In this document: positions 1-47,756 of the stretch, piece after piece
Layout: each line of letters begins with the position of its first letter
Position numbering within the stretch: position 1 is the first letter of the stretch
Virus record (IMG/VR): IMGVR_UViG_3300024232_000019
Coordinates: 1 to 47,756 of that record
Source: a virus
Taxonomy: Duplodnaviria > Caudoviricetes
DNA: 47,756 nt
Reading direction: 5' to 3' (one strand)
Notes under the pieces: model-generated
Databases searched by the model: none
Seen by the model: only the letters and a program-made list of their open reading frames with translations
Told to the model about the DNA's origin: nothing
Program-made: the position numbers and the translations under genes

Positions 1-16
1 GATGTGGAACCGCTTA

Positions 17-1422: not shown

Positions 1423-1571
1423 GGCCGACCTCCGATCCTCGGGGACTTCCGCGCCGGGGCTGTCAGTCCAACCTCCTGCCCCGTCTTGACCGTTCTCGGC
1501 TCGGTCGGCTGAGCCTGAGCGCCGGACTCGGCGCACGCTCCCTCCACCCCACCGGCCCCGGCGCAGGTCAT
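1419..1571 (-). CDS. Hypothetical 50-aa protein
   Basis: Fills the gap with ATGA overlaps at both ends; no motif. Confidence 0.35.
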   Translation of the reverse strand: MTCAGAGGVEGACAESGAQAQPTEPRTVKTGQEVGLTAPARKSPRIGGRP

Positions 1572-2472: not shown

Positions 2473-2755
2473 CCTCGGCCATCCTGCGGACGACGGAGAG
2501 CGAGGACTCGACGGGCTTGCTCCATTCGAACAGCGCCCTGCCGAAGTACTTCGCCACGGCCATCTCGGTGAAGAACGTGTCCCCGAAGCTCTTCTGGCAC
2601 CACACGAAGGCGATGCCGATCTGCTCGGGGGTGGCGTTGGCCTCCCGTAGCTCGCGCACCGCCGCGTTGCGAAGCCCCCGCCCCGACGGCGAGGGCACGG
2701 GGCCGAAGCGCTCCTCCAGTGCATCCCAGATCTCGTCACGCGGGCGCTCGGTCAT
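2465..2755 (-). CDS. Putative replication protein (DnaD-like helical domain)
   Basis: GGAG RBS; EERFG...ATPEQIGIAF pattern; near the loader-like gene. Confidence 0.45.
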   Translation of the reverse strand: MTERPRDEIWDALEERFGPVPSPSGRGLRNAAVRELREANATPEQIGIAFVWCQKSFGDTFFTEMAVAKYFGRALFEWSKPVESSLSVVRRMAEDG

Positions 2756-3701
2756 CGCTCTCCTCCTGCTGCGCGGCCAGTGAGGCCCGAAGCTGGTCGG
2801 CCAGGTCTGTCTCGTTGACGACGGCGCCCGCGCCTGCGGCCGGACAGACGTTGGCCCAGCCGCAGTAGCCGCAAATCGGCTTGTTGTACTGCTCGTAGAT
2901 CGCGCCGAAGGTGGGCCACGTCTCAAACGGCCCGTACTCCGCCATGTAGCGGTTCGCCCGCAGGCCAAGCTCCTGCACCATCGCCAGCGTCGAGGTCTGC
3001 TGCGGAGCGGTGGGGATGACCGAGAGCGCCGGGAACTCCAGCGGGGTGATCACCTTCTTCGGGCTGACGATGTGGAAGTCCACCGGCAGGTTGCGGGCCA
3101 TGCCGTAGATGCGGGCCTGAAGCTGCCAGTCCGGCTTCACCTCCCGCCGCGCCGTCTTCGTGGTCTTCATGTCCACGATCACGTTCGTGGTGCGCACGTC
3201 GGTGTAGCCAATCAGGCTGATCGGCAGGCCCACGTCGATGTCTAGCTGCTCCTCGACGGCGAGCGGCTGAACCCGGGGCATGACCTCCGCGTGATAGTTG
3301 CCGACCATCGTCAGCGTGTTGGCAAGGCAGTCGTCCTGGCTGTCGTCCCACTCCACCTCGCCGCCGTACTCCTGCTGCTCCGCGATCTGCTCTGCCCAGA
3401 GCTTGTCGGTCAGCATCTCGTTCAGCGTGTCGAGCGGGAGGTCTTCGTGGCTCTCGATCTTCTGGCTGAAGTTCGCCTCCGCGACGGAGTGGAAGGCGCC
3501 GCCCATCACAAGCTGCTGGCCCGGTCGTCGCTTCTCGCCCAGCACGTAGCGGTGGCGGAACTGCTCCGGGCAGCGGGCGAACATGGCGAGCGAGGTGGCG
3601 CTCCAGGAGCGGTTCGGGATCAGCCACCAGTCCGGGATGGGCTTCTCGACGGGGGCTGGTGGTGCCGTCTCGATGTTGAAGTCGTCCAGGTTGAAACTCA
3701 T
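2736..3701 (-). CDS. Cas4/RecB-like PD-(D/E)xK exonuclease
   Basis: SATSL..F.RCP, GYTD, IVDMKT, QARIY and CGYCGWANVC (1+3 Cys arrangement). Confidence 0.85.
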   Translation of the reverse strand: MSFNLDDFNIETAPPAPVEKPIPDWWLIPNRSWSATSLAMFARCPEQFRHRYVLGEKRRPGQQLVMGGAFHSVAEANFSQKIESHEDLPLDTLNEMLTDKLWAEQIAEQQEYGGEVEWDDSQDDCLANTLTMVGNYHAEVMPRVQPLAVEEQLDIDVGLPISLIGYTDVRTTNVIVDMKTTKTARREVKPDWQLQARIYGMARNLPVDFHIVSPKKVITPLEFPALSVIPTAPQQTSTLAMVQELGLRANRYMAEYGPFETWPTFGAIYEQYNKPICGYCGWANVCPAAGAGAVVNETDLADQLRASLAAQQEESDDRAPA

Positions 3702-3735
3702 GCGTCCCCCGTGGGTCGGTGGTGTTTCGTCCGGC

Positions 3736-4074
3736 TCATTTGCTATCGGCCGGAAGAGCATTTCCGTCCGGCTCGTCTGGTAGCGGCGGCAGCGGCGGCA
3801 GCTTCCCACCGGCCGCCTCGTAGATCGTCTGCTCGCCCTCGACGGGGATCTGGTGGATCCAGATGTCCCACTCCAGCTTGTCCGAGTCCCGGGCGGGCTT
3901 GTAGCCGCCGGGGCCTCCATCACCGGCAGACGAGGAGTGGTAGCGACCGCCGAGCTTGATCAGCCCCTCCCGCAGCGTCTCGTCGGTGGTGAGGCAGAAC
4001 ACCATGCGGCTGGGCAGGCAGATGAGGCGCCCGCCTTTCGCCCTGATCCTCTCGACCAGCTTCTCAGCGGTCAT
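3736..4074 (-). CDS. Hypothetical protein
   Basis: Tightly packed in the operon. Confidence 0.6.
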   Translation of the reverse strand: MTAEKLVERIRAKGGRLICLPSRMVFCLTTDETLREGLIKLGGRYHSSSAGDGGPGGYKPARDSDKLEWDIWIHQIPVEGEQTIYEAAGGKLPPLPPLPDEPDGNALPADSK

Positions 4075-4267
4075 CGGGGACGAAGCCGAAGTAAAAGCGG
4101 GGCATGTGGGTGAACTCCATCCAGCCCTCGACGCCGTCCGCCCTGCGGATGACGCGCACGTGCGGGGCACGGAAGGCGACGACTTCGAAGTCCTCTCGTA
4201 GCTGATCGGTCGTCCAGAGGCGCTCGCCCTCGGGTGGCTCCGGCCTGCCGTAGTCGTGGATCGTCAC
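4064..4267 (-). CDS. Hypothetical protein
   Basis: 67 aa, starts 2 nt after the SSB-like gene stop. Confidence 0.65.
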   Translation of the reverse strand: MTIHDYGRPEPPEGERLWTTDQLREDFEVVAFRAPHVRVIRRADGVEGWMEFTHMPRFYFGFVPDDR

Positions 4268-4269
4268 GG

Positions 4270-4989
4270 TCAGAAGGGGAAGTCTTCGTCGCCGGGGGGC
4301 GGGGTGTCGTACTCGTCAACCTGGGCGGTTTGCTGCTGGGCCTGGGGCTGAAGGTCGAAGCCATTCTGGCCCCGCATGATCGCCGTCCTGGCGAAGAAGT
4401 CCGCCATCTTGATCAGAGCGGGCACGCCGTGCTGCTCCTCGGGCAGGTAGGCGAGCATCTTGACGGCAGGCTCCAGCGCCGCCAGGAAGGAGACGCGGCG
4501 GATGAAGGCGTCGTCGGTGACCTCCTGCGGCTGGGGCGGGGGAGGCGGAGGGCTGCCCTGGTTCAGGGCGGGCTGCCCCATGCCGCCGATGGTGTTCGGC
4601 TGGAGGCCCTGTTGGGGCTGCTGCTGCCAGCCCTGGGCCTGCTGCTGGGGCGGCTGCTGCTGCCAGCCCTGCTGCTGCGGTTGCTGCTGCATCTGCGGCT
4701 GGCCCTGCATCGGCGCCACGCCGTTGATCCACTTCGACGTGACCGGCTGGCCCGTCTGGTTCGTCCAGTGGGAGAGGCCGCAGACGAAGGAGAAGCTCTG
4801 GCCGATGGCGCCCATCATCTGCTGGGCGAGGCCCTGCTCCTTCGTGTTCAGGTTGAGCGCGTACTGGCCGGTCGAGCCGAACTCCCTGACCTTGACCACG
4901 AAGCGGCCGTTCGGCTTGATCTCGACACCCTCGACGGTGCCGTTGACGACAACGCTCTCGCTGCCGCCCCCCTGTTCCTGGTAGCTCAT
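4270..4989 (-). CDS. Single-stranded DNA-binding-like protein
   Basis: Beta-rich N-terminus, Q/P-rich linker, acidic tail DEDFPF typical of SSBs. Confidence 0.65.
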   Translation of the reverse strand: MSYQEQGGGSESVVVNGTVEGVEIKPNGRFVVKVREFGSTGQYALNLNTKEQGLAQQMMGAIGQSFSFVCGLSHWTNQTGQPVTSKWINGVAPMQGQPQMQQQPQQQGWQQQPPQQQAQGWQQQPQQGLQPNTIGGMGQPALNQGSPPPPPPQPQEVTDDAFIRRVSFLAALEPAVKMLAYLPEEQHGVPALIKMADFFARTAIMRGQNGFDLQPQAQQQTAQVDEYDTPPPGDEDFPF

Positions 4990-5213
4990 CGGTTCCTTCC
5001 TGTCAGTAGGTAGCCGACCGTCGTGCCGAGAGCAGCGGCGGTCTTGATGATCGGGTCGCCGGGATTGGGCAGGCTCCTGCCCGTCTCCCAGAACCCGATG
5101 GTGCGGTAGTGGACGCCGACGATGTCCGCGAGCGCCCTCTGCGTGTAGCCGTGCTGCCTGCGGAGCTTGCGCAGCCTCGTCGGGAACCCACGCGGAGATG
5201 GTGTATGCGCCAT
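4986..5213 (-). CDS. XRE-family HTH regulator (Cro-like)
   Basis: LRKLRRQHGYTQRALADIVGVHYRTIGFWETG. Confidence 0.9.
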   Translation of the reverse strand: MAHTPSPRGFPTRLRKLRRQHGYTQRALADIVGVHYRTIGFWETGRSLPNPGDPIIKTAAALGTTVGYLLTGRNR

Positions 5214-5289
5214 TCCTCCATCCTACTGCCAGCACCGGACGGTGCGCTAGCCCCGCTGCCCATCTGTGCTGGGTGTTACGGTCTGCGGA
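5214..5289. promoter_or_regulatory. Putative divergent promoters: leftward -10 TAGGAT (5225-5220) and rightward extended -10 TGtTACGGT (5274-5282)
   Basis: TANNNT hexamers, each 6 nt upstream of an in-frame ATG (5213) or ATC (5289), which fits leaderless transcripts. Confidence 0.45.
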
Positions 5290-5372
5290 TCGCCAGCAGA
5301 CTCACCGCCAAGCTGCTCATCGCCACGCTCGTCGTCGCGGTTCTCGCCGCGCTCGTTCTCGGCGGGAGATAG
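5289..5372 (+). CDS. Possible ~27-aa single-TM peptide (start uncertain)
   Basis: IASRLTAKLLIATLVVAVLAALVLGGR; followed by an 11-bp hairpin at 5418-5446. Confidence 0.35.
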   Translation: MASRLTAKLLIATLVVAVLAALVLGGR

Positions 5373-5791
5373 AGATAGGGTGTCCAGCAGGAGGCAGTCG
5401 GGATTGGCCTACTGTCAGACGGCCCGCGCTGCTAACGCGGGCCGTCGCTCTGAGGCGGTGCTGTTTCTTTCCCTGATAGGGATGCCGGATCGGAGTGCAT
5501 AGCTCTCAGCGTCCGAGGTCTTGAGGCGGATCCCACTCGCTTATTCTGCGAAGCCCCTCTTGGTCTGGAGGGCAGTCGGCGGTGGCCCGCTGGCTCCGCT
5601 CTCGCCACATCCTCCTTCGCCTCACGCCCCTGCCGTGTCCCTTGTAGGGCGATCCTGCCGCTTCGCGGAGCCTCGACTCGACTCTCGCTGGAGATGTAGG
5701 GGGCGGATGCGTTAGGCTTCGTCCAGGTTCTTCTTTATCGTCAAGGGGCGAACCTACCACCTTCTCCTGACAGGTGGGTCTGTAGGTAGAC

Positions 5792-5823
5792 GACAGAGGC
5801 TCCTTCGGGGGCCTCTTCGTTTT
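5792..5823 (+). terminator. Rho-independent terminator, plus strand
   Basis: AGAGGCTCC-TTCG-GGGGCCTCT then TCGTTTT; G-U pair only on the plus strand. Confidence 0.7.
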
Positions 5824-5830
5824 CCCGTGG

Positions 5831-5866
5831 AAACGACGAAAGCCCCCCGCGTGAGCAGGGGGCCTC
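5831..5866 (-). terminator. Rho-independent terminator of the accessory operon
   Basis: Minus strand GAGGCCCCCUGC-UCAC-GCGGGGGGCUUU then CGUCGUUU. Confidence 0.7.
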
Positions 5867-5918
5867 GGTCGGGGGGGAAGGACGGTATTCCTTGCGGGAA
5901 TATCGTCCTTCGGCTAGG

Positions 5919-5936
5919 CGGGCAACTACCTCCCCC
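5919..5936. repeat. Long-range inverted repeat, left arm (partner 14548-14565)
   Basis: CGGGCAACTACCTCCCCC vs reverse complement CGGGCAACTACCTCCTCC, 17/18 identical. Confidence 0.6.
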
Positions 5937-5939
5937 GGG

Positions 5940-6119
5940 CTACTTCTCCAGTTCCAGCCTGGCGTGGTGCAGGCGGCGGCGCAGGCCGTAGAGCCTCACC
6001 CGCCTCTTGTGCTGGCCGGTCTTGATCTCATGCGCCAGCGTGTACGCGACGGCGCTGATGAGCGCGTCGATGTCCTCCGAGTTGAGCGTGACGGGCACGA
6101 CCTTCTGGCGGGTAGCCAT
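5940..6119 (-). CDS. Hypothetical basic protein
   Basis: TAATG coupling to the upstream gene. Confidence 0.65.
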   Translation of the reverse strand: MATRQKVVPVTLNSEDIDALISAVAYTLAHEIKTGQHKRRVRLYGLRRRLHHARLELEK

Positions 6120-6316
6120 TACGCCGCCCTCGCCTCTCCCCAGGCGCGGATCTCCTCTGCGTTCCACAGCCGGGTGCCGTCCTCCAGCACCTTCACGGGC
6201 GCCGGGAAGTGCTGCTCCGGCGTCCGCATGATCTCGTTCAGCCTGGTGGGTCGAAGCGAGAGGATGTACTCCAGTTCGCGGCGCCCCACCAGGGCGTCGA
6301 GTGTTGCCTGATCCAT
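6119..6316 (-). CDS. AlpA/excisionase-like HTH protein
   Basis: LVGRREL...FPAPV...RLWNAEEIRAW; strong RBS. Confidence 0.75.
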   Translation of the reverse strand: MDQATLDALVGRRELEYILSLRPTRLNEIMRTPEQHFPAPVKVLEDGTRLWNAEEIRAWGEARAA

Positions 6317-6328
6317 GATTCTCCTCTC

Positions 6329-6580
6329 CTAGTTCCGGGCTGCGAGCGCGGCCATGTAAAGCTCATGGCCCCGCTCCGCCTCCGCGATCATCTCCGGGTC
6401 GGAGGTCGTGTACACGGCCTCCTCGCCGTCGTCGGTGATGAAGATGCAGAGCCGTAGCCCGTCGCCGTCGGCGTCGAGCCTCCTCTGTATCTCGCTGTCG
6501 GGGGCCATCCAGGTGTCCCCGACGTTCGTGCCGTAGGGGCCGCGCTTGACCCCCTTGCCGTGGTTGCCGTGCTGATCCAT
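6329..6580 (-). CDS. Hypothetical protein
   Basis: Preceded by the ACCCACGAAAGGAG box. Confidence 0.75.
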   Translation of the reverse strand: MDQHGNHGKGVKRGPYGTNVGDTWMAPDSEIQRRLDADGDGLRLCIFITDDGEEAVYTTSDPEMIAEAERGHELYMAALAARN

Positions 6581-6598
6581 GTTCTCTCCTTTCGTGGG

Positions 6599-7000
6599 TT
6601 ATCGAGTGCGCTTCCGGGCCAGGTACTCCCGGTCACGCTGGTTCGCGCAGAGCCGACACACGACTGTCCCGTTCTTCCTGGCCTTCAGGTTTTCGGGCAG
6701 CGTGATGTCGTGGCTGCGTGAGCAGCGACCGTCCGGCCAGCGGTGCAGCCGGACATGCTCGCGTCGTGTTACCGCGAGCAGGTGCGTCGGGTTGAAGCAG
6801 GTTCGACGCTCGCAGGCGTGATGGACAAGTTCGGCTTCACCAATCCAGATCTCGTAGGCGAGTCGATGAACGAGCCTGAGGCGACCGTCGATCTTGACGT
6901 GTCCGTAGCCATGAGTGTCGAGTGCTCCTGTCCAGATCCAGCACTCACCATCGAGGGTGCGGTTCCGCAGCAAGCGCTTGGCTACCTGTCCCAAATCCAT
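6599..7000 (-). CDS. HNH homing-endonuclease-like protein
   Basis: CWIWTG...GYG...VHRLAYE...HHAC...CFNPTHL and C-terminal CxxxH...CxxC. Confidence 0.85.
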   Translation of the reverse strand: MDLGQVAKRLLRNRTLDGECWIWTGALDTHGYGHVKIDGRLRLVHRLAYEIWIGEAELVHHACERRTCFNPTHLLAVTRREHVRLHRWPDGRCSRSHDITLPENLKARKNGTVVCRLCANQRDREYLARKRTR

Positions 7001-7929
7001 ACACGCTCCTTCTCCATGAAGGCAGCGTCGTCCGGCCCCTTGATGTAGGGCGAGATCCACTTCTGGCGGTGGATCCCAAGCGACGGGTACCACTGGTCAC
7101 GCCAGTGGCCCCGCACCATGAAGCGGTGCGAGTAGTGCGCCTCGCCCGGCTCGCCGTCGTGCTTGGTCGTGACGCGGCGAAGCTCCACCACGATCACGTC
7201 CTTCACCTCCGGCATCCCTCGCCGCTTCGCCTCGCGCCACACCGGCCGCGAGGTGCGCTGCCGCGCCTTGGCGACGATCCTCTCCGCCATCAGGCGGTGC
7301 AGGACACGCAGGTAGGTGATCCAGTCGGCGTTCCTGTCTCCCTCGCCCCGGGTGTGGGCGAGTTGGTTGGCGAACGCGAGCGGCATCGTCGTGGCGTGCA
7401 GGACGCCCCAGGGGCCGGGGACGCCCGCGTTCCAGACCTCGCTGTAGTCGTCCTTGTCGCCCGTGTTCGACCAGAGCGTGATCGTCAGGCACATCGTCGG
7501 GCCTGCCTCGCCGCCGTTGGCCGTGGCGAAGCTCTCGGGCAGGTCCACGATCCCCATGCGCCAGTGGATCGCCCGGAACGCGGCCGTCTTCCCGGCCATG
7601 TCGGGGCCGAGGAACGGCTCCGACAGGTAGGCGAACCCGCAGCGGAAGAGCACGTCCTCTTCGTGCAGCGGCTCCCTGGCGTCGAAGCTCTGCATCGCGT
7701 CCAGGACGAGGTGGTGCATCTCCGGGGCGACGTAGAGCGGCTCCGCCACGATCAGGTCATCGACCATCGTGGCGAAGGCCATCGCGGAGGGCTGGGCTGC
7801 CCCGCTGCCGTACTTCCTGGCCCGGTCGAACAGCCAGAAACGCTCGTACTGCTTGCCCGTGGCGGATGTCATCAGCGCCAGCACCTCGCTCTGGGCCGAC
7901 AGGGCCGTCTCCCAGTTCTGTCGTTGCAT
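6982..7929 (-). CDS. Conserved phage protein with C-terminal VRGHWR motif
   Basis: Start follows a repeat unit; HRFMVRGHWRDQWY...WISPYIKGP. Confidence 0.8.
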   Translation of the reverse strand: MQRQNWETALSAQSEVLALMTSATGKQYERFWLFDRARKYGSGAAQPSAMAFATMVDDLIVAEPLYVAPEMHHLVLDAMQSFDAREPLHEEDVLFRCGFAYLSEPFLGPDMAGKTAAFRAIHWRMGIVDLPESFATANGGEAGPTMCLTITLWSNTGDKDDYSEVWNAGVPGPWGVLHATTMPLAFANQLAHTRGEGDRNADWITYLRVLHRLMAERIVAKARQRTSRPVWREAKRRGMPEVKDVIVVELRRVTTKHDGEPGEAHYSHRFMVRGHWRDQWYPSLGIHRQKWISPYIKGPDDAAFMEKERVWIWDR

Positions 7930-8009
7930 GCTTGCCTCCTTCGTGGGTGGACTCCCCTGCTGGGGAGCCTGGAGAGGGGCAGGCGCCGCAAGGCCCGCCC
8001 CCTCCCCTG

Positions 8010-8348
8010 CTAGCGCTTGCGGCCGATGCCGTGCGCCCCGATCTCCACCTCGTAGCTTCCGTCGTCGGTCTTGCGGACGGACGAGAGCGCGTTGAAGTTG
8101 TCGAGCGTCATGTCGAGCGTCACATCGACGCCCTTCTCCTGGCCGCTCACCTTCGCCAGCCACATCGTCCTGACGTGTGGCTCGACCCGCTGACCGGCGA
8201 TGTGTTCGTGCGGCATGTTGAACGTGAGGATGTGGACGCCGTCCGGGTCGAGCGAGTCGAGGAACTCGTCCGGGAGGAGCCGGTTGAAGCCCCGCTTGAT
8301 TGAGTCCCTGCCGATCCGAACGAACTCGTCGGTGTAGGCGATCTTCAT
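8010..8348 (-). CDS. Hypothetical cassette protein
   Basis: Bounded by repeat units. Confidence 0.8.
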   Translation of the reverse strand: MKIAYTDEFVRIGRDSIKRGFNRLLPDEFLDSLDPDGVHILTFNMPHEHIAGQRVEPHVRTMWLAKVSGQEKGVDVTLDMTLDNFNALSSVRKTDDGSYEVEIGAHGIGRKR

Positions 8349-8429
8349 CTCTACCTCCTTCGTGGGTTCACTCCCCTCGCGGGGAGCCTGGAGCGGCAGG
8401 GAGTCCCGAAGGACTCCCCACCTCCCCTG

Positions 8430-9518
8430 CTACTTGACGGTCAGGGCGACCTTCTCCCAGGCCCGGTCGGTCATGTTGGCGACCTGCCAGCCGATGCCCT
8501 CCAGGTCGGCCTGCCGGTCGAAGCTCTCGACCGTCTGGGCCACCGCCGTGATGGCGTTGAGTGCGCCCCACTGGCCCTTGCCGATCCCGTTCGGGTCGGC
8601 GGCCAGCGACAGCATCACGGCCTCCTGCTCCTCGTCGGTGAGGCCGTACTCCGTCGCCAGCACCTTCGTGGCGGCGACGGGCGAGACGACCTGGACCTCC
8701 GAGAGGCCGTCGAGGCGGTCGCAGATCTCCGCGAACGTCGTCTCGGAGCAGGTGTGGCGAAGCGTGTCGCGGGCGGCGAGCCAGAAGGCCACGTCGTCGG
8801 CGGCGAGCGCCTCGTTCGACAGGATGCCCTCGCCCTCACGCTTGCCGACGTGGCGGGCGTTGAGCGCCTTGGTGGTGGTCATGCCGTTGGTGCAGACCAG
8901 GACGAGCATGAAGCCGCTGATCGTCAGCGACCCCGCGCCGATCTCGGAGTTCTTGATCTCGACGCCCCAGCGCACCGTGTCACCGACCTTCTTCACGTCC
9001 CGCTCGATGGCCGGGAACGTGGCCCGGATGTAGAGCTTCGACTCGGTGATCGCGGCCTGGTGGAACTCCACGTCGGTGCCGAGGTTGTCGAACTCCGGCA
9101 GCAGCGTCCGGGCGATCTCCATGTTGTCGAGCCGCCGGAACTTGTCGCTCATCCAGGCGCGGCCGGTCATGGGGCCGTCCGGGTTGGTGAGGCCGCGCAC
9201 CATGCGGGCCTTCGGGTCGGAGTACATCCAGTGGTGCAGGTTGGTCTTGAACAGGTCGGGCGCGTCGTCCCGCATGCGGTCGAAGTAGCGCTTGGGGATG
9301 CCCAGGTCGGTGCTGACCTGCCCGAGGGCGTAGTCGGTCATCACGTACTCGTCCATGCCCTCCAGCCCGTCGAGCAGGAGCCGGATGCTCAAGTCCTCGT
9401 CGCCCGTCTCGGGCGTGACGACGGACATCTTGCGCGTGTCCGCGATCACGTCGTGCTTGCGAGCGTCCTCCGCGACGATCCGCGCAAGAAGCTGCTCGAT
9501 GTTCTCCATCGTTCTCAT
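8430..9518 (-). CDS. DUF932-family phage/plasmid protein
   Basis: NSEIGAGSL...LVCTNGM...RH.G motif. Confidence 0.8.
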   Translation of the reverse strand: MRTMENIEQLLARIVAEDARKHDVIADTRKMSVVTPETGDEDLSIRLLLDGLEGMDEYVMTDYALGQVSTDLGIPKRYFDRMRDDAPDLFKTNLHHWMYSDPKARMVRGLTNPDGPMTGRAWMSDKFRRLDNMEIARTLLPEFDNLGTDVEFHQAAITESKLYIRATFPAIERDVKKVGDTVRWGVEIKNSEIGAGSLTISGFMLVLVCTNGMTTTKALNARHVGKREGEGILSNEALAADDVAFWLAARDTLRHTCSETTFAEICDRLDGLSEVQVVSPVAATKVLATEYGLTDEEQEAVMLSLAADPNGIGKGQWGALNAITAVAQTVESFDRQADLEGIGWQVANMTDRAWEKVALTVK

Positions 9519-9600
9519 GGTCTTCCTCCTTCATGGGTGATCCCAGCGAGTGCTGGGCCTGGAGGGAGCGTACCACCGTGACGGCGATACGCTCCTCCTC

Positions 9601-9897
9601 TCAGTCGTGCTCAAACGTGTCCGTGGTGTCGTAGGTGGTGATCCCGGCCTTCTTCATGTAGCGCTGGATCGCCTGGAAGTCACCGGCCTGCTGTTCGAAC
9701 AACTGCCGGGGCGTCAGCGGCATGGCCGGGTCGTGCGGCATCACGCTGGTGAGCGCCAGCGTCTTCTCGCCCATGCGGGTGAAGACCAGCCCGGAGCGCG
9801 GGACGCCCCAGACGCCGCCGACGCGGAGCGCGGTGAACATCGACCGCGACCACTCGACCCACTGCTCGTCGCTGCCGAGGCCGAAGGCGCCGCTCAC
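9601..9897 (-). CDS. Hypothetical protein (second gene of a two-gene cassette)
   Basis: GTGA overlap with 9894-10106. Confidence 0.7.
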   Translation of the reverse strand: MSGAFGLGSDEQWVEWSRSMFTALRVGGVWGVPRSGLVFTRMGEKTLALTSVMPHDPAMPLTPRQLFEQQAGDFQAIQRYMKKAGITTYDTTDTFEHD

Positions 9898-10106
9898 GAT
9901 GGCGCCTCGGCGTTGAGGATGATCTCGCCGTCCGCCTCGCTGTCGTCGGCGCCGTTCGTGCCGACCACCGCTGCCCCCGTGGGGACGAGCGCGATCTGGA
10001 CGAAGCCGACGAGGAGGTTCTGAGTCTGCTCGCGCACCTCGACCGTGATCGTCTGCTTGTCGTCGCGGCTGACCGTCCAGGCCAGCGTTCCGGTTGCAAT
10101 GCTCAT
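9894..10106 (-). CDS. Hypothetical cassette protein
   Basis: Starts after a repeat-unit RBS. Confidence 0.75.
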   Translation of the reverse strand: MSIATGTLAWTVSRDDKQTITVEVREQTQNLLVGFVQIALVPTGAAVVGTNGADDSEADGEIILNAEAPS

Positions 10107-10178
10107 GCCGTACCTCCTTCGTGGGTGAACCCGGGCGGTGCCCGGGCCTGGAGGGCGGAGCCGAAGCCCCGCCTCCCC

Positions 10179-10352
10179 TTAGCGCTTGCCCTGGTCGAAG
10201 CAGTCGATGCAGAGAAGCTTGCTGCGCCGCTTGCCCCGGCAGGGCTTCATCTCCCCGCAGCCCGCGCAGGCCGTGGTCATGGCCCACTCGCTGCCCCAGG
10301 TCTTCCAGGCGGCGAGCGCCGCCAACTCCAGGGCCGTCAGCTTCTCGGCCAT
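10179..10352 (-). CDS. Small Cys-rich protein
   Basis: TGATG coupling; CAGC...CIDC. Confidence 0.65.
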   Translation of the reverse strand: MAEKLTALELAALAAWKTWGSEWAMTTACAGCGEMKPCRGKRRSKLLCIDCFDQGKR

Positions 10353-10693
10353 CAGTGCCGCCCGTGCTCGTCGGTGGGCGTGGCCTCGACGCTGGAGCGG
10401 GTGTAGCCGACGCTGCCGTTGATCGACCACCCGAACGGGCCGTAGAAGACCGCGAGCAGGATGGCGTAGAGCGGCAGGATGACGAACACCGCCACGCTGT
10501 TGCCGACCATCCAGGTCGTCACGACAGCCGCCGCGTAGGCGACCACCAGGAGAACGAGCGCGGCCACGAACCGGCGGTTGCGATGGCCGGTGGGGTCTTG
10601 ACACTGACGGCAATACCAGCCGCCGGTACAGGCATCGAGACGGCGAAGATTGCCGCACCAGTCGCAGTGTCCACGCTTGTTGATGTTGGACAA
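10352..10693 (-). CDS. Zn-finger plus two-TM membrane protein (TTG start)
   Basis: CDWC...CRQC, two hydrophobic segments, repeat-unit RBS. Confidence 0.7.
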   Translation of the reverse strand: MSNINKRGHCDWCGNLRRLDACTGGWYCRQCQDPTGHRNRRFVAALVLLVVAYAAAVVTTWMVGNSVAVFVILPLYAILLAVFYGPFGWSINGSVGYTRSSVEATPTDEHGRH

Positions 10694-10765
10694 AGTGGTA
10701 CCTCCTTCGTGGGTGTGACCCAGGTTCCCTGGGCCTGGAGGGGGCGCTCGCGAGCGCCCCTCCCC

Positions 10766-10960
10766 TCAGGTGGTCGGTCCCACTTCCTCGATGACGACCG
10801 GGGCGATGTGCGAGCCAAGCTCGGCCAGCATCTCGGCCACCTCGACGGCGATCTGCTCCGGTGTCCAGCCGCGCACGATGCTGCGGGCCACCGTCTTGCC
10901 CCAGAGGCCGTATTCGCCCTGGGCGCCGTAGTCGCGATACTCGATCTCGATCACGGTCAT
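10766..10960 (-). CDS. Hypothetical cassette protein
   Basis: Bounded by repeat units. Confidence 0.8.
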   Translation of the reverse strand: MTVIEIEYRDYGAQGEYGLWGKTVARSIVRGWTPEQIAVEVAEMLAELGSHIAPVVIEEVGPTT

Positions 10961-11030
10961 GGTCTTCCTCCTTCGTGGGTGAACCCTCCCGTCGGGAGGG
11001 CCTGGAGGGGGCGCCTGAGCGCCCTCCCTC

Positions 11031-11213
11031 TTAGGTGTTCAGCGACATCAGGACATCGCTGAGCAGGATGGCCTCGGTGCGGGCCTCGGAGCGCAGCTTC
11101 ACGTCGGTCGAACTGTCCTTCGCCACCGACTCGGCGTTGGACTTGGCGAACTCGACGGCCTTGCGAAGAGCATCGAACTGCGTGGGCGGGAGTGAGATGG
11201 TGATCTTCGTCAT
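11031..11213 (-). CDS. Hypothetical cassette protein (RHH-like N-terminus)
   Basis: KITISLPPTQFDAL; bounded by repeat units. Confidence 0.75.
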   Translation of the reverse strand: MTKITISLPPTQFDALRKAVEFAKSNAESVAKDSSTDVKLRSEARTEAILLSDVLMSLNT

Positions 11214-11280
11214 GGTCTACCTCCTTCGTGGGTGTGACCCTCCAGCGGAGGGCCTGGAGGAGGGGCCGAAGCCCCCTCCC

Positions 11281-11568
11281 CTACGAGCCGACGTTGTAGC
11301 GCCGGACGCGGTTGTCGTAGTAGTCGTTGCGCTTCACGTCGGCGGGGGTCTGCGACCCCTTGCCGCCGCAGCGGAAGCAGGTGCCGGTGAAGCCCTGGAA
11401 GACGCCGTTGACGACGCTGCCACGGCCGTAGTAGACGCCGTCGCCCCGGCAGCCGTCGCAGTCGACGTTGCCCTCGGGCATGTCCTTGACCGGCGCCCAG
11501 GTGGAGGCCGGGTCGTTGGCGGGGTTGGCGACGTGCGCGGCGGTGAAGCTCTCGGGCAGGAAGCTCAT
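11281..11568 (-). CDS. DnaJ-type zinc-finger protein
   Basis: CDGCRGDG...CFRCGGKG. Confidence 0.8.
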   Translation of the reverse strand: MSFLPESFTAAHVANPANDPASTWAPVKDMPEGNVDCDGCRGDGVYYGRGSVVNGVFQGFTGTCFRCGGKGSQTPADVKRNDYYDNRVRRYNVGS

Positions 11569-11745
11569 GGTGATCTCCTTCGTGGGTGTGGGTGAGGTCG
11601 GCCCCAGGGGCAGGGAGGCGGGACGAGTCCGGCGCGGCGCCTGGGCATAGCGCAACAGAGCGTTACCCGTTGGCGGTGCGACCCGGAGCGTCGAACGTGG
11701 CCTCCCTCCCCTGGGTGCCTGGAGGGCCTCGCGGCCCCCCTCCTC

Positions 11746-12165
11746 TTACGCCGTGACCGGCGCCGTGCTGCGCTCGTAGATGCGCTTGCTGTCGTCCAGG
11801 AAGCTGGCGGCGTGGCGCTTCAGGAAGCTCGCACGGCTCTCGATCTTGAAGCTGGCGTTCGTGTACAGGCCGACGTGGGCGGCCACGTCCTCGGCCGTGA
11901 TCGGCCGGGGGTCGCCCTGGCCGGTCATCAGCGAGGCCCCGTGCAGCTTCTCGACCAGGCTGATGCGGGCGTACACCTCGGCGGCGTTCTCCTCGGTGAT
12001 CGTTCCGATGCCGGTCGAGAGCGAGTGCCAGATCAGCGCCGAGGTGGCCGGGTTGAGCACCCTGTCGCCCTTCGTGATGCCCTGCGTGGGCGCGTCCTCG
12101 GTCGCCGTGAGGAAGCACACCTCGGCGCCGTTCTTCACGTTCTTGGTGTCCCAGTTGAGACTCAT
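11746..12165 (-). CDS. Hypothetical cassette protein
   Basis: Bounded by repeat units. Confidence 0.8.
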   Translation of the reverse strand: MSLNWDTKNVKNGAEVCFLTATEDAPTQGITKGDRVLNPATSALIWHSLSTGIGTITEENAAEVYARISLVEKLHGASLMTGQGDPRPITAEDVAAHVGLYTNASFKIESRASFLKRHAASFLDDSKRIYERSTAPVTA

Positions 12166-12239
12166 CTTCGATCCTCCTTCGTGGGTGTGACCCGGGGTGT
12201 CCCCGGGCCTGGAGCGGGGGCCTTCGCGGCCCCCCTCCC

Positions 12240-12467
12240 CTAGCGGCCGAAGCTCGCGGCTCCGACCATCGACTGCGCGGCGGCGACCAGCGCCGCCACG
12301 CTCTCCTCGGGCAGCGCGAGCAGCGTCTGGGCCTGAGGGACGAGCGCGGCGAGCGGAGTGCCCTCGGCGTGCTCGATGATGCGCTGAAGCTCCGCGTGGA
12401 ACGTGCCCTCGGCCTCGTCGTCGCAGACGCTGAAGTCCGGGTACTCGGGGGTGTCGTAGTTGCTCAT
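12240..12467 (-). CDS. Hypothetical acidic cassette protein
   Basis: Bounded by repeat units. Confidence 0.8.
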   Translation of the reverse strand: MSNYDTPEYPDFSVCDDEAEGTFHAELQRIIEHAEGTPLAALVPQAQTLLALPEESVAALVAAAQSMVGAASFGR

Positions 12468-12536
12468 GTCTTCCTCCTTCGTGGGTGGTGTCCCGGGTGA
12501 ATCCCGGGGCCTGGAGGGGCGCCGCAGCGCCCTCCT

Positions 12537-12776
12537 CTAGGTGATGGGGTTGGAGCGCGAGAGGTCGATCCCGACCATCATCGCGTACAGGAAGTCGGCC
12601 ACCTCGCGCTTCGTGCCGACCGTGATCGTGCGGATGCAGGCCGCGCCCTGGTACTCGTCCAGGGCGACGTAGCCGTTGCGCTGCTGGGCCTGGACGTGGC
12701 GCCCCGTGCTCACGATCCGCCGGTTCAGGTTGATGGCCCGCTCGCGGACATCGGTGATGGTGATGCGTTCAGACAT
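12537..12776 (-). CDS. Hypothetical cassette protein
   Basis: Bounded by repeat units. Confidence 0.8.
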   Translation of the reverse strand: MSERITITDVRERAINLNRRIVSTGRHVQAQQRNGYVALDEYQGAACIRTITVGTKREVADFLYAMMVGIDLSRSNPIT

Positions 12777-12833
12777 GGCTTCTCCTTCGTGGGTGGGTAC
12801 TGGAGCGGGGCCGGTGTGGCCCCTCCCCTGGCT

Positions 12834-13037
12834 CTAGGCAGCAGGCGTCTCGATCTTCACGACCTTGACGCTGGTGTAGTCGCTGTACTCGGCCAGCAGC
12901 TTGTCGCGGTAGGCCGCCGCGTCGGTGACGGTCTTGAAGCCGCCGTGCAGTTCAACGAACGGGTTGGCCGAGTGGGCCTCGACGCCGTAGCAGTAGCCGC
13001 CCTGGGGCAGCAGGATGCAAGGGAACTCGCGATGCAT
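12834..13037 (-). CDS. Hypothetical cassette protein
   Basis: Bounded by repeat units. Confidence 0.8.
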   Translation of the reverse strand: MHREFPCILLPQGGYCYGVEAHSANPFVELHGGFKTVTDAAAYRDKLLAEYSDYTSVKVVKIETPAA

Positions 13038-13109
13038 GGTCTGTCTCCTTCGTGGGTGTCGGCCCCTCGGTGTGAGGGGGCCTGGAGGGGCGCGTCGGCG
13101 CCCTCCCGG

Positions 13110-13391
13110 CTAGAGCAGCCCGCTGAGCAGTGGGCCGTCGTAGCTCATCTCGATGTTGCCGAGGTCGATCCAGCGCTGGAGGTTGAGGTCCCAGCGGGAG
13201 AGCTTGGAGTCGCCGTAGTAGGAGTCGCAGGCGAGGCGGTGCGTGGCGGCGCTCAGGGAGCCGCTCGGGGTGGAGATGACCCGCTCGTAGACGCGGATGA
13301 AGTAGGGCGAACCGTCGTGCTTGCTGGCCGTCTCGGGCTGCGCGTTGCGCCAGAGCTTGCTGGCGAAGACGCGGGATTCTGCCTTGGTCAT
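13110..13391 (-). CDS. Hypothetical cassette protein
   Basis: Bounded by repeat units. Confidence 0.8.
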   Translation of the reverse strand: MTKAESRVFASKLWRNAQPETASKHDGSPYFIRVYERVISTPSGSLSAATHRLACDSYYGDSKLSRWDLNLQRWIDLGNIEMSYDGPLLSGLL

Positions 13392-13460
13392 GGTGTGCTC
13401 CTTCGTGGGTGTGTCTCCCTCGACTGAGGGAGCCTGGAGAGGGGGCCGAAGCCCCCCTCC

Positions 13461-13727
13461 TCAGACCGCGTAGGAGTAGCCGACCTGGCTGTTCTCGTCG
13501 CGGACGATGCGCTTGGTGTCGGGGGAGATCCTCAGGTCGAGGATGACGACCTCGATCCGGTCGTAGTTGCGGTCTTCCTTGGCGAGGTCGTGGGCGTAGG
13601 TGTTGGCCGCGTTCTCACCGTTGAAGGGGCCGTGGATCTCGATGCTGCCGAACGGCTTGACGGCCTCGACCGCGTACACGTCGCCCGTGTGCAGGTTGCC
13701 GATGGTGAAGAGTTCCTTGCGCTGCAT
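13461..13727 (-). CDS. Hypothetical cassette protein
   Basis: MQRKELF start after a repeat-unit RBS. Confidence 0.8.
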   Translation of the reverse strand: MQRKELFTIGNLHTGDVYAVEAVKPFGSIEIHGPFNGENAANTYAHDLAKEDRNYDRIEVVILDLRISPDTKRIVRDENSQVGYSYAV

Positions 13728-13798
13728 GGTGCCTCCTTCGTGGGTGAGTCCCCTCGCGTGAGGGGCCTGGAGAAGGGGGCCGAAGCCCCCCTCCTCTT

Positions 13799-14344
13799 CT
13801 ACGCCTCGGTGGCGGTGTTCGTGACGGTGGCGGTGAGGGCGTCGATGCCCTCCTGGCAGGCCCGTGCGGCGGCCTGGGCGACCCGTGCGTTCTCCTGGGC
13901 GGCGAGCGAGGCGGCCTTCGCCTGCTCGGCCGTCTCGGTCAGGCCCTTGATGTGGGCCAGCAGGAAGTCGAGCGCCTCGACGGCGTCCTCGTCGGCCGCG
14001 TTGTCGACCAGGGCCGAGAGGATCTCGACGGCGCGGTCGAACGTCATCGGCTCCTCGATCTTCTCGACCGAGATGCTCACGCTGCTGACGAGCCAGGTGG
14101 TGCCGTTGTAGTCCTCGACCTCCATGCTGTCGTAGACGACATCTCTGGCCGAGTCCTCGGCCGCGTCCTCGTCCTCGGCCTCGATCACGTAGTTGATCTC
14201 GCCGCCGTCGCACTCGACTTCGTTGCTGGAGAAGTACGAGTTGTCGATGAAGTCCTCGGCGCCCTCGGGCGTGTCGAAGCGGATGCCGTCGCACTCGACG
14301 CTGGTCGAGAGCGAGAACTCGATGGTGACCTGGAACTTGCTCAT
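13799..14344 (-). CDS. Highly acidic protein, first gene of the accessory operon
   Basis: About 40 D/E vs about 9 K/R in 181 aa (hand count). Confidence 0.8.
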   Translation of the reverse strand: MSKFQVTIEFSLSTSVECDGIRFDTPEGAEDFIDNSYFSSNEVECDGGEINYVIEAEDEDAAEDSARDVVYDSMEVEDYNGTTWLVSSVSISVEKIEEPMTFDRAVEILSALVDNAADEDAVEALDFLLAHIKGLTETAEQAKAASLAAQENARVAQAAARACQEGIDALTATVTNTATEA

Positions 14345-14390
14345 GGTGTTCCTCCTTCGTGGGTGTGATCGCCAGAGTGGCGACCTGGGG

Positions 14391-14830
14391 ACGGAGGAGA
14401 AGCTCACCGAGGCCCATGCGGCCCCGGCTTCCCCCGCTCTTCGGCCCTGTAACCCGTCGTTGGATCCGCCCCAGGGCCAGACGACGCGATGGGCTGCGTC
14501 GAATCCGGTGTCCCGGTCATCAGAGGCTAAGGCGGACGACGTGTGAAGGAGGAGGTAGTTGCCCGGCTCGCATTGGCCGGGAGGCTCTCATCGACCCCGT
14601 AGGACGCAGCGCCTACCCCGACCTCGGTCGGACGCGGCTCAACACCGCTTCGGCGCCACGCCCCCCGCAGGGGGAGGCTGGCATGTAGGCGGGTACTCGG
14701 CTGGCGGACTTCGCGGGCCTTTCCTCCGGCTTCCCCGGGAGCAGAGCGCCCTTCACGTTGGGCGGTGCTTCCCGGCTGGCAGGGGCCACGTTACCGACAC
14801 GGCGGCACACCGCAAGGGTGAAACGGAGTG
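14391..14830 (-). ncRNA. Putative long structured leader RNA
   Basis: No credible ORF; dense run of hairpins upstream of the first cassette. Confidence 0.4.
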
Positions 14831-14921
14831 ACGGAGAACAAGAATGTCGCAATTTGCGGGTTTTTCGTGTTTGGGCCTGCTGGCTGGCGCCCGTCTGCTG
14901 CGGGGCGTAGAATCGGCTCCA

Positions 14922-15476
14922 GTGGCCGATTTGACGATCATCGAGGGCGGCCGGGGCTGGCATCCGTCGGTGGATCAGTCGGCGGAGGATCCGGCGCTGC
15001 GGCCGGACGGGAAGCGCCAGTGCGTGGACGTGAAGCAGGGCGGCGGCCGGTGCGGCGCCTACGCGGTCACGGGCCTTGCTCGCTGCGCCTTCCATGCGGG
15101 CATGGCCGACCCCGCAGTCGGGGGGCGAGCGAAGGGCGCGGCGATCCGGGCGAGCAAGGAGCGTGCCCGCGAGCTTGACGCGATCTCGCGCCTGGGGACG
15201 AGGGCCATCGTCGCCCAGGTGTTCACGGAGCGGGCGAGCGACGTGCGCAGCGTGGTGGGGGCGATCCTGGACGATGCGCTCGACCTGGACGCACCGGCGG
15301 CGACACGCAGGGCGGCGAGGACGGCGCTGCTGCCCTGGCTCGATCAGGCGCTCGGGCGCCCGAAGGAGAGCGTGGAGGTGACGCTGCCCGGGAGCGTGGA
15401 GGAGATCGAGGGCATGGAGTACACGGCGCTGCTGGCCGCCAGGGACGCCCTGCGCCAGGCCGCCGGGGGCGCCTGA
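14922..15476 (+). CDS. Probable terminase small subunit
   Basis: C...GGRC...RCAFHAG zinc motif then a helical region; TAGAAT at 14908-14913 precedes the GTG; first gene of the rightward arm. Confidence 0.5.
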   Translation: MADLTIIEGGRGWHPSVDQSAEDPALRPDGKRQCVDVKQGGGRCGAYAVTGLARCAFHAGMADPAVGGRAKGAAIRASKERARELDAISRLGTRAIVAQVFTERASDVRSVVGAILDDALDLDAPAATRRAARTALLPWLDQALGRPKESVEVTLPGSVEEIEGMEYTALLAARDALRQAAGGA

Positions 15477-15880
15477 CGAACCCCCTCGGGGCGCCTTCCT
15501 GCGCTTGGGCACGAAGCCAGTAGAGGGTCGGAGCCTGAAGCCAAACCGGACAGGCGGAGCAGGGCGTACAGACAGGCTGGGGTGAGGCGTGGGGTGGCGC
15601 CCGGGCCACGCTCGGGGCAGCGGGTCAGGCCCAGCCTCGGGGGTGCTGCACAGGGCCGATCCTGCCCTCCCCACACGCCTCCGCAGCGCCCCGCAGACAG
15701 CCTCGTAGATGGCTCAACAGAGCCAAACGAGGCCGTTCTGGCCGACCTCGATCCGGCCAGGCCGGACAGCCCGATCCGCAGGGCGAGCGCGAGCCGGGTA
15801 CCACCCCCCCGGCGCGTGGCGCGGGGCGGCTGCGCCCGTGTCCCGCACCCCACCCCCACACGAAAATGCCCCCACCATCA

Positions 15881-15915
15881 TGCCGTCATGCCATGTGCCA
15901 TACTGCCGTCATGCC
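15881..15915 (+). promoter_or_regulatory. Extended -10 (TGcCATACT) overlapped by periodic TGCC repeats, putative operator
   Basis: TGCCGTCATGCC twice; TGCC at 15881, 15889, 15896, 15904, 15912. Confidence 0.55.
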
Positions 15916-16084
15916 GACTGAGAGTGGGGTGGCGAAGGTGACGGTTCGGATCCCCCCGGATCTGCACCGTCGCTTGCGTCAGGTCGTGTTCGACCAGGAC
16001 ACGTCGATCCAGGCGGAGGTGGCGAATCTGATCGTCATGTATGTGGAGCACCATGAGGGGCAGAAGGTGGTGAAGCATGGGTGA
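15911..16084 (+). CDS. Arc-like ribbon-helix-helix regulator
   Basis: KVTVRIPPDLHRRLRQ...TSIQAEV. Confidence 0.75.
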   Translation: MPTESGVAKVTVRIPPDLHRRLRQVVFDQDTSIQAEVANLIVMYVEHHEGQKVVKHG

Positions 16085-47656: not shown

Positions 47657-47756
47657 CCCTTCGCCTCCTCCGGGATCTCGGTGCGGTTGACAAGCACGAA
47701 CGCCCCGGCGCGAGCGAGCGCGTGGTAGCGGGTCAGCGCCCCGCCGCCGTCAAGCT

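What the first reader, a model, noticed from the sequence alone, without database searches (positions are those of the whole stretch)
7930..14390. Gene-cassette array punctuated by a co-varying two-hairpin repeat
Seen: 14 intergenic units plus a leader copy read, on the coding strand, stop, hairpin P1 (GGAG...CUCC, often with a UUCG loop), AG(G), hairpin P2, (C)ACCCACGAAGGAG, then a short spacer and the start. P2 stems differ in sequence but always pair (plus strand CTCCCC/GGGGAG, CCCAGC/GCTGGG, CCCGGGC/GCCCGGG, CCCAGG/CCTGGG, CCCTCCC/GGGAGGG, CCCCTC/GAGGGG, TCGCCA/TGGCGA), so structure is being conserved. Each cassette holds one or two unrelated ORFs. Known analogues: integron attC arrays, T4-type PeSL elements, mycobacteriophage start-associated sequences and T7 early RNase III sites, but I do not recognise this motif. 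Inference: a modular expression or processing unit that may also seed gene shuffling of host-takeover genes, with no dedicated recombinase encoded.
Basis: partly seen in the sequence, partly recalled or inferred. Interest (0 to 1): 0.9.

Follow-up and report, generated by a model that had tools for sequence, protein, structure and literature searches.

The report
One ribozyme, many phage cut sites
A soil phage separates its early genes with 15 copies of a folded spacer, and the untranslated stretch upstream carries a hammerhead-ribozyme-like core whose two arms match 13 of those spacers, so one RNA enzyme likely cuts the long message into single-gene pieces.

Summary
The repeat is real: 15 units on the coding strand, folding as RNA, no Rfam match. 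The window is a ~47.6-kb podophage; relatives share the unit with different cassettes. New: the leader (14430-14531) holds a hammerhead-like core (CUGAUGA, G10.1-C11.1, GAA) with stem II replaced by a predicted four-way junction and no matched cut site of its own. Its arms predict the target CUC-H/AGGC, found in 13 of 14 window units (about 4 in 10,000 by chance). A sister lineage changed three target bases and the three partner bases in its leader; three leaders swap C3-G8 for G3-C8. I infer one ribozyme cutting many sites into single-gene mRNAs (0.6). Against: no RNA data, very short arms, costly target opening, a non-canonical G15.1-C16.1 pair in this lineage, only two arm types. Cassettes are gained, lost and replaced at units; no excision joint seen. 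Earlier scan notes hold no look-alike, one analogous note.

The parts
14788..14815 (-). Putative housekeeping promoter of the early operon (TTGCGG, 16 nt, TAACGT)
   Evidence: Read by eye; similar -35/-10 pairs lie upstream of leaders in L258, L249, L256. The consensus scan found none; not clear in L124. Inferred.
14545..14558 (-). Conserved anti-Shine-Dalgarno stretch of the leader; predicted distal helix with GAAGGAG(G) of every unit
   Evidence: Identical in window, L124, L191; duplex -11.3 to -17.5 kcal/mol with 15 of 15 unit cores; not present in the D-lineage leaders
14524..14527 (-). Arm I (GCCU), predicted to pair with AGGC just after the cut
14517..14523 (-). Hammerhead-like core CUGAUGA (C3-A9)
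   Evidence: GUGAUCA in 3 of 7 distinct leaders
14443..14516 (-). Three helices in series (a with GACA loop, b, c closed by G10.1-C11.1): predicted four-way junction in place of stem II
   Evidence: Folds (7 of 8 leaders fold so by MFE; L326 has helix c with 5 of 6 pairs by eye); covariation
14437..14442 (-). G12-A13-A14 and arm III (GAG), predicted to pair with CUC before the cut
14351..14439 (-). Leader copy of the unit; its junction mismatches arm III at 15.2 and its P2 is fully paired, so likely a poor substrate
   Evidence: inference
13799..14344 (-). Cassette ORF, 181 aa, unknown; homologs in L125-L128, L316, L151 (end)
13732..13798 (-). Unit 1; predicted cut after 13769
13397..13464 (-). 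Unit 2; predicted cut after 13436
13044..13111 (-). Unit 3; predicted cut after 13084
12781..12830 (-). Unit 4; no P2, only 2 pairs to arm I, not matched by the predicted pattern
12473..12540 (-). Unit 5; predicted cut after 12513
12173..12239 (-). Unit 6; predicted cut after 12211
11574..11745 (-). Unit 7; predicted cut after 11721; P2 expanded to a long irregular hairpin with a 24-nt apex (11644-11667) shared with unrelated phages
11220..11284 (-). Unit 8; predicted cut after 11256
10967..11032 (-). Unit 9; predicted cut after 11004
10701..10767 (-). Unit 10; predicted cut after 10737
10113..10180 (-). Unit 11; predicted cut after 10150
9525..9602 (-). Unit 12; predicted cut after 9561
8430..9518 (-). 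Cassette ORF, 362 aa, phrog_1362 (unknown function); marker used to fetch relatives
8354..8424 (-). Unit 13; predicted cut after 8390
7935..8004 (-). Unit 14; predicted cut after 7971
6982..7929 (-). Last cassette ORF, 315 aa, phrog_15934 (unknown function)
5829..5863 (-). GC-rich hairpin with a T-rich tail, likely end of the early transcript
   Evidence: Read from the sequence; below the threshold of the scan. Inferred.

Best explanation
The 15 repeats are RNA spacers in one early transcript, and the leader upstream of them carries a hammerhead-like core whose arms match 13 of them, so the leader likely acts as a single ribozyme that cuts each spacer at CUCC/AGGC. Shown: the core letters, the arm-to-unit complementarity and its compensatory change between two lineages. 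Inferred steps: (1) one promoter near 14800 makes a long transcript; (2) the leader folds into the core with a four-way junction in place of stem II; (3) it docks on a unit through GAG:CUC, GCCU:AGGC and, in this lineage, a 7-10 bp helix on the ribosome-binding site, helped when a ribosome at the stop codon opens the base of P1; (4) it cuts after the last C of CUCC; (5) P1 recloses flush over the new 3' end, its GGAG displacing arm III, and P2 caps the 5'-OH end, which would release the enzyme and leave single-cassette mRNAs protected at both ends with a strong start site. The shared 8-14 nt blocks would also serve as exchange points for cassettes, as a by-product.
For: Complete core in all 8 leaders found (7 distinct): C3-A9, G10.1-C11.1, GAA. 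Target predicted from the arms alone lies in 13 of 14 window units; 6 of 16,384 possible patterns do as well; 31 of 34 non-leader units of this lineage carry it. Sister lineage D: leader arms GACU and ACG predict CGU-H/AGUC, in 12 of 13 (L258) and 9 of 10 (L259) intergenic gaps, with 10, 6 and 7 downstream copies in L300, L316, L326, which were fetched after the idea was formed. Three of seven paired target positions differ between lineages and all three partners differ to match; each leader predicts its own lineage only (A pattern 13 and 8 in A arrays, 0-2 in D; D pattern 6-15 in D arrays, 0 in A). The unpaired position 17, left free in the search, is C in 71 of 72 sites, U once, never G. Core C3-G8 is G3-C8 in 3 of 7 leaders; C3-G8 is a known pair that co-varies in nature (PMC3088659 passages). 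A shape-only search that ignored the arms passed 7 of 1006 candidates, 6 of them these leaders. Units fold as RNA on the coding strand with a one-sided bulge (23 on the 3' side, 0 on the 5' side) and lack promoter and U-tract. Clustered self-cleaving hammerheads that flank single prophage genes do cut polycistronic RNA (PMC3088659 passages).
Against: No cleavage or RNA-end data. In this lineage pair 15.1-16.1 is G-C, not A-U; changes there cost at least tenfold in earlier work, and cutting after NCH was obtained with inosine (PMC8879150 passages). Two hairpins between A9 and G10.1 are not a form I found described. Arms are 3 + 4 bp (3 + 5 in D); opening the 8-nt target costs 5.1-12.8 kcal/mol (4.1-8.8 with the stop-proximal strand held open; higher rather than lower in 2 of 13), more than the arms return; D median 5.6 over 48 sites, with no distal helix. 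Only two arm types are known, so the three compensatory pairs are one event (1 in 64 if independent). In the window the leader candidate ranked third of 52 by raw genome-wide hit count. The 8-nt target is not avoided in the phage's own genes (5 seen, 5.2 +/- 1.9 expected). 3 of 34 units lack the match. The sister clade (L246-L257) has punctuated arrays but no such leader.
Confidence: 0.6

Rival explanations
1. The leader pairs with the units but no longer cuts in this lineage: a slowed or dead ribozyme acting as a base-pairing repressor that covers the ribosome-binding site of each cassette.
For: G15.1-C16.1 is non-canonical; the anti-SD helix (-11 to -17.5 kcal/mol) is far stronger than the arms and is found only in lineage A.
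Against: Core, GAA and G10.1-C11.1 are intact in 3 of 3 A leaders and both arm III pairs changed together, which points to selection on active-site geometry.
Confidence: 0.15
2. The units are cut or protected by host RNases (RNase III on stacked P1/P2, RNase E 5' of C) and serve as stabilisers plus start-associated sequences; the leader match is incidental.
For: Related arrays without the leader use long irregular hairpins (L246-L257) or tRNA-like units (L253, weak mascRNA hits E 0.25-0.84); mycobacterial RNase E cuts 5' of C (PMC10641625 passages).
Against: Does not explain the three compensatory arm-target changes, the G3-C8 swap or C at position 17. Host is unknown.
Confidence: 0.12
3. Each unit is a translational switch: a ribosome at the stop codon opens P1 and the freed CUCC covers the next Shine-Dalgarno sequence.
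For: With the stop-proximal strand held open, CUCC:SD pairing probability is 0.6 or more in 5 of 14 units; RNAalifold picked this pairing on a rough alignment.
Against: It is 0.06 or less in 6 of 14 units; D units have no CUCC; follows mechanically from two GGAG copies.
Confidence: 0.05
4. PeSL-like terminator plus promoter in every gap, transcribing cassettes separately.
For: Stem-loop after each stop, SD at the 3' end, variable gene region (PMC4122927).
Against: 0 promoter-like sites in 5200-15200 and no U-tract terminator at any unit; 2448-aa virion protein gave no RNA polymerase match.
Confidence: 0.04
5. attC-like single-strand DNA sites for site-specific cassette excision.
For: Array of unrelated ORFs between structured repeats; content differs among relatives.
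Against: No GTT/AAC cores at unit ends (by sight), RNA tetraloops on the coding strand, no integrase, no unit-to-unit joint in 8 runs.
Confidence: 0.02

Closest known systems
Clustered self-cleaving hammerheads flanking single prophage genes (Perreault et al. 2011, PMC3088659; passages seen)
   Same: Hammerhead core; cut between unrelated phage genes; polycistronic RNA to single-gene mRNAs.
   Different: There each gap holds a whole ribozyme acting in cis; here one core sits in the leader and the gaps hold only target half-sites; stem II is a predicted four-way junction; this lineage has G15.1-C16.1.
Discontinuous Clec2 hammerhead and Schistosoma SINE hammerheads (as reviewed in PMC6765202; passages seen)
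   Same: Enzyme and substrate parts apart in the RNA; cleavage in trans seen in vitro for Schistosoma.
   Different: One enzyme part per site there; here one for 13 sites up to 6.5 kb away, with arms too short to hold the product.
PeSL elements of T4-type phages (PMC4122927; parts 1-2 of 3 read)
   Same: Stem-loop, SD and start in gaps of a variable region; exchange points for unrelated ORFs.
   Different: No sigma-70 promoter in these units.
SAS/ESAS of cluster K mycobacteriophages (PMC3203893; passages seen)
   Same: 13-nt asymmetric motif holding the SD, a few bases before the start, in non-structural genes.
   Different: Different sequence; here stems vary in sequence while pairing is kept, and an 8-nt block matches the leader.
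T7 early RNase III sites (recalled, no call)
   Same: One early transcript cut between genes, leaving hairpin-ended mRNAs.
   Different: Host protein enzyme there; P1 here is mostly 8-11 bp with one bulge.

Membership tests
Hammerhead ribozyme | Core C3-U4-G5-A6-N7-G8-A9 with C3-G8 pairing | tested here: met
   CUGAUGA at 14517-14523; CUGAAGA in 2 and GUGAUCA in 3 of 7 distinct leaders
Hammerhead ribozyme | G12-A13-A14 after a helix closed by G10.1-C11.1 | tested here: met
   8 of 8 leaders (L326 by eye)
Hammerhead ribozyme | Stem II joins A9 directly to 10.1 (three-way junction) | tested here: not met
   Two hairpins lie between A9 and G10.1 in all leaders
Hammerhead ribozyme | A15.1-U16.1 pair | tested here: not met
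   G-C in the window's lineage (3 leaders); A-U in 5 D leaders
Hammerhead ribozyme | Position 17 is A, C or U | tested here: met
   C in 71 of 72 sites, U in 1
Hammerhead ribozyme | Stems I and III pair next to the core | tested here: met
   With the distant units: at least 3 + 4 pairs at 13 of 14 window units; imperfect with the leader's own junction
Hammerhead ribozyme | Match to an Rfam hammerhead model | tested here: not met
   No hit in window or in L258, L259
Hammerhead ribozyme | Cleavage giving 2',3'-cyclic phosphate and 5'-OH | not testable with these tools
   Needs bench assay or RNA ends. Verdict: works like a hammerhead; not filed as a canonical member.
PeSL | Stem-loop upstream, SD and start at the 3' end | tested here: met
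PeSL | -35/-10 promoter inside each element | tested here: not met
   0 sites; at most about 50 nt between P1 and SD, filled by P2
PeSL | Mini-circle excision between tandem elements | tested here: inconclusive
   No unit-to-unit joint in contigs of 8 runs; contigs drop rare forms
SAS/ESAS | 13-nt motif holding the SD a few bases before the start, one orientation | tested here: met
   (in kind; the sequence differs from the cluster K consensus)
SAS/ESAS | 17-bp inverted repeats conserved in sequence | tested here: not met
   Stems vary in sequence and keep pairing
Integron attC array | RYYYAAC/GTTRRRY cores closing one nested hairpin (features recalled) | tested here: not met
   Not in the unit sequences, by sight
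Integron attC array | IntI integrase nearby | tested here: not met
   No integrase family among 66 ORFs
RNase III site (T7 early type) | Long helix with internal loop cut by RNase III (features recalled) | tested here: inconclusive
   P1 mostly 8-11 bp; longer only if stacked on P2; cleavage not testable

The most novel reading that the evidence does not exclude
These phages encode a natural multiple-turnover RNA endonuclease: one four-way-junction hammerhead that, after release from the leader, cuts a dozen or more co-evolving target sites in trans, with P1 and P2 built to eject the products. The window's lineage has reprogrammed it to cut after NCH through a G15.1-C16.1 pair and anchors it on Shine-Dalgarno sequences, which could also let it act on host mRNAs.
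Probability: 0.35. Interest if true: 0.97.

Novelty: new variant of a known kind. Interest (0 to 1): 0.88.

Why it matters
Reviews describe natural small nucleolytic ribozymes as acting in cis and trans-cutting forms as engineered (passages of PMC6765202 and PMC12192606), and note a standing search for genomic trans-cleaving ribozymes. A phage RNA that cuts many separate sites would answer that search with a system testable in a day with two short transcripts, give a biological role to a bacterial-virus ribozyme, and show a new fold (four-way junction in place of stem II) and possibly a natural exception to the NUH rule. It would also offer a protein-free way to split synthetic operons. It explains why the 8-nt block and the SD-bearing 13-mer stay fixed while genes and stems turn over.

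Tried and rejected
Rfam: no hit at gathering score in the window; only chance-level hits at E <= 5 in 5200-15000; none relevant in L256-L259 or around the apex motif in 10 loci. tRNA/tmRNA: 0 genes in 10 loci, one of which covers window 1-15974. Expression: no RNA holder listed, so nothing on RNA ends. Excision: no unit-to-unit joint in contigs of 8 of 16 listed DNA runs. Host: no close cultured phage (best major capsid identity 28-31%), endolysin relatives unnamed, none in genome contigs; an actinobacterial host is only a guess from GC and TANNNT-type -10 boxes. Virion RNA polymerase with hairpin promoters: no such match for the 2448-aa protein. Cas6/type I-E repeat mimicry and HK022 put-like antitermination (both recalled): dropped because P2 varies freely or is absent and one put-like site per operon would suffice; not tested further. 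First automatic parse of units mis-cut 6 of 37 and was redone (where 2 of 34 P1 parses are still wrong and the 3 leader P1s were left out). Of 119 and 106 pattern loci most were chance matches without the hairpins; 6 of 9 leader-pattern loci were unrelated; of 23 terminase loci 6 reached a leader, 2 of them new. Search for a matching ribozyme or guide in lineages B/C and L253: none. T-loop repeats in L333/L334 are ordinary tRNA genes. PMC11014351 gave nothing on 15.1/16.1; Ludwig et al. 1998 is not held. Paper searches for a prior description: searches listed none; subscription papers are not covered.

Full report
Setting. The window is one virus record with a 133-nt end repeat, 66-70% GC, SU10-type portal, capsid and adaptor, a terminase, a CHAP endolysin and a 2448-aa virion protein, and no integrase among 66 ORFs: a podophage. 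It occurs in soil runs (five hold over half of the words, one may be the source). The array is the first part of a leftward operon that diverges from the terminase side near 14.85 kb. The host is unknown.

Observation. 15 cores, chance at most 1, each between a stop and a start. One unit lacks P2 and one has a 125-nt P2. Over 32 distinct P1 hairpins from 8 loci, 14 loops are cUNCGg and 5 GNRA on the coding strand, none on the template strand; 23 single bulges lie on the 3' side and none on the 5' side; cognate arms beat swapped arms in all 10,000 permutations for P1 and P2 (2 of 34 parses faulty). Pair counts on 29 units give a covariation score of 0.441 against 0.148 (alignment fitted to the model). 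The weakest pairs are the two at the base of P2 (22 of 27 and 13 of 28 paired). In 22 aligned units the block CUCCAGGC and the core are invariant. No Rfam family, no promoter or U-tract terminator in the units.

Relatives. The same unit occurs in L124/L245, L149, L151, L168, L185, L191, L223: lineage A. The 362-aa cassette protein fetched 16 viral loci; 11 of these records share the capsid protein at 45-54%. On the capsid tree (12 rows, long branch for the window) the window groups with L258 and L259, whose gaps carry hairpin + GUCAGUCAACCC + SD: lineage D. The other branch uses long irregular hairpins; L253, outside the capsid clade, uses tRNA-like units. So punctuation of the early operon is general and its form follows the lineage. 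Cassette content differs widely; homology blocks often start or end at units. Among 11 A/D loci there are 0 pairwise order conflicts but one three-way one (f2 before f3 in the window, f3 before f5 in L151, f5 before f2 in L245); order differs between A and B. A near-identical strain keeps the order and no unit-to-unit joint was seen in 8 runs. Exchange at units is thus real over evolutionary time, not shown to be fast or enzyme-driven.

The leader. Between the putative promoter and the first gene lie about 430 untranslated bases, conserved in L124 and L191 and in D. In all 8 leaders found (window, L245, L191, L258, L259, L300, L316, L326; 7 distinct) the order is: arm I, CUGANGA or GUGAUCA, hairpin a with a GACA loop, hairpin b, helix c closed by G10.1-C11.1, GAA, arm III, helix d. 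This is a hammerhead core (consensus as given in PMC3088659) with a, b and c forming a four-way junction where stem II stands; the helices co-vary (score 0.248 against 0.126 on 7 rows, rough alignment). A shape search that ignored the arms passed 7 of 1006 distinct candidates in 5.07 Mb of redundant loci, 6 of them these leaders, and missed L326; model R2 finds only the 8 leaders below E 0.04 in 52 sources (7 were training rows).

Arms and targets. Reading 3 bases after GAA and 4 before the core gives the target. Window: CUC-H/AGGC, 16 minus-strand hits, 13 in units; 6 of 16,384 patterns reach 13 of 14 units. D: CGU-H/AGUC, in 12 of 13 and 9 of 10 gaps of L258 and L259 (2 and 1 of 16,384 patterns do as well). 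The leader candidate ranked first in 5 of 6 loci and third of 52 in the whole window. I noticed the match by eye in the window, L258 and L259 before writing the scan; L300, L316 and L326 came later and fit, but all have D-type arms. Pairs 15.1-16.1, 15.2-16.2 and 2.3-1.3 changed on both sides between A and D; cross-matches are 0-2. Position 17 is C in 71 of 72 sites. C3-G8 becomes G3-C8 in three leaders; the paper reports the pair and a U3-A8 variant, that G3-C8 keeps activity is recalled. The leader's own junction mismatches arm III in A and arm I in D, and L326 has no GUC there, so the motif is not an ordinary self-cleaver. Lineage A adds an anti-SD stretch that pairs with all 15 cores.

Mechanism (inferred). 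The cut falls flush at the 3' base of P1 and just before P2, so each product would carry a hairpin at both ends and its own start site; P1's GGAG copies arm III and the weak base of P2 competes with arm I, which would release the enzyme. 5'-OH ends would resist 5'-monophosphate-dependent decay (recalled; the abstract of 10.64898/2026.04.06.716707, says mycobacterial RNase E prefers monophosphate to triphosphate ends). The job equals that of clustered cis hammerheads in prophages, which cut polycistronic RNA in vitro.

Against. No RNA data. G15.1-C16.1 in this lineage departs from a pair whose change costs at least tenfold; NCH cutting was engineered with inosine. The junction insert is not a form I found in print. 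Opening the target costs 5.1-12.8 kcal/mol, 4.1-8.8 with a ribosome mask, against a few kcal/mol from the arms (D median 5.6), so distal or tertiary contacts, tethering or co-transcriptional capture are needed. The target is not avoided in the phage's genes. Three of 34 A units lack it. Lineages B/C show no such leader. A ribosome-triggered CUCC:SD switch is possible in 5 of 14 units.

Papers seen. PMC4122927 parts 1-2 of 3; passages of PMC3203893, PMC10641625, PMC6765202, PMC3088659, PMC12192606, PMC8879150, PMC11014351; abstract of 10.64898/2026.04.06.716707 (66); no supplements. T7 RNase III sites, attC cores, put RNA and type I-E repeats are recalled. Searches listed no description of this unit or of a one-to-many natural hammerhead; the library lacks most subscription papers.

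Verdict. Observation confirmed; interpretation partly supported and extended. Best reading: a leader-encoded hammerhead-like ribozyme cutting an array of co-evolving targets (0.6; higher for lineage D, which keeps A15.1-U16.1). It works like a hammerhead but fails two defining features, so it is rated a new variant; shown turnover in trans would make it a new category. Interest 0.88.

Noticed in passing
window 11644-11667 (-); L234-L244, L273, L290: A 24-nt apex on a long variable stem recurs unchanged in 11 viral contigs, 10 with unrelated flanks and without this capsid gene; two more keep 20 nt with the closing pair swapped (13 of 20 hits of a 16-nt pattern). Often just before an SD. No Rfam hit, none in genome contigs. 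In L124 it sits between other genes than in the window. Likely an undescribed phage RNA motif, perhaps a protein-binding decoy.
   Followed up: partly
L253 350-6900 (+); single copies in L246 ~4290, L247 ~4288: At least 9 T-loop hairpins in tRNA-like units (acceptor-like stem, GG linker, T-arm) fill the gaps of an unrelated 61-kb phage's array; weak mascRNA hits. Likely RNase P/Z punctuation.
   Followed up: partly
L246-L257 intergenic gaps: Units with two mutually exclusive folds: a long irregular stem that starts at the stop codon, or a separate second hairpin; tandem G-U pairs kept. Possibly RNase III sites.
   Followed up: partly
L258, L259, L300, L316, L326, first unit after the leader: The first D unit carries a second UGACU in its loop, a copy of arm I that could shield that site.
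   Followed up: no
window 12781-12830; L151 96-144: The same P2-less P1 follows different genes in two genomes and could pair 8 bp with an extended arm III (by sight).
   Followed up: no
window 37215-44561 (+): 2448-aa virion protein, only hit phrog_9880; an HExxxH stretch near residue 1690 resembles polyvalent-protein peptidase domains (label recalled).
   Followed up: no
window 29074-29998 (+): Six to seven 120-160 nt coding repeats in a 429-aa tail-region gene.
   Followed up: no
window upstream of genes starting at 6580 and 47340 (-): Variants of the start-associated core without hairpins.
   Followed up: no
window 47505-47663: A 49-nt partial repeat next to the 133-nt end repeat.
   Followed up: no
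window 8415, 8420: Strain variants in P1 of unit 13 keep pairing (U-G to C-G, A-U to G-U) in runs X3, X4.
   Followed up: yes
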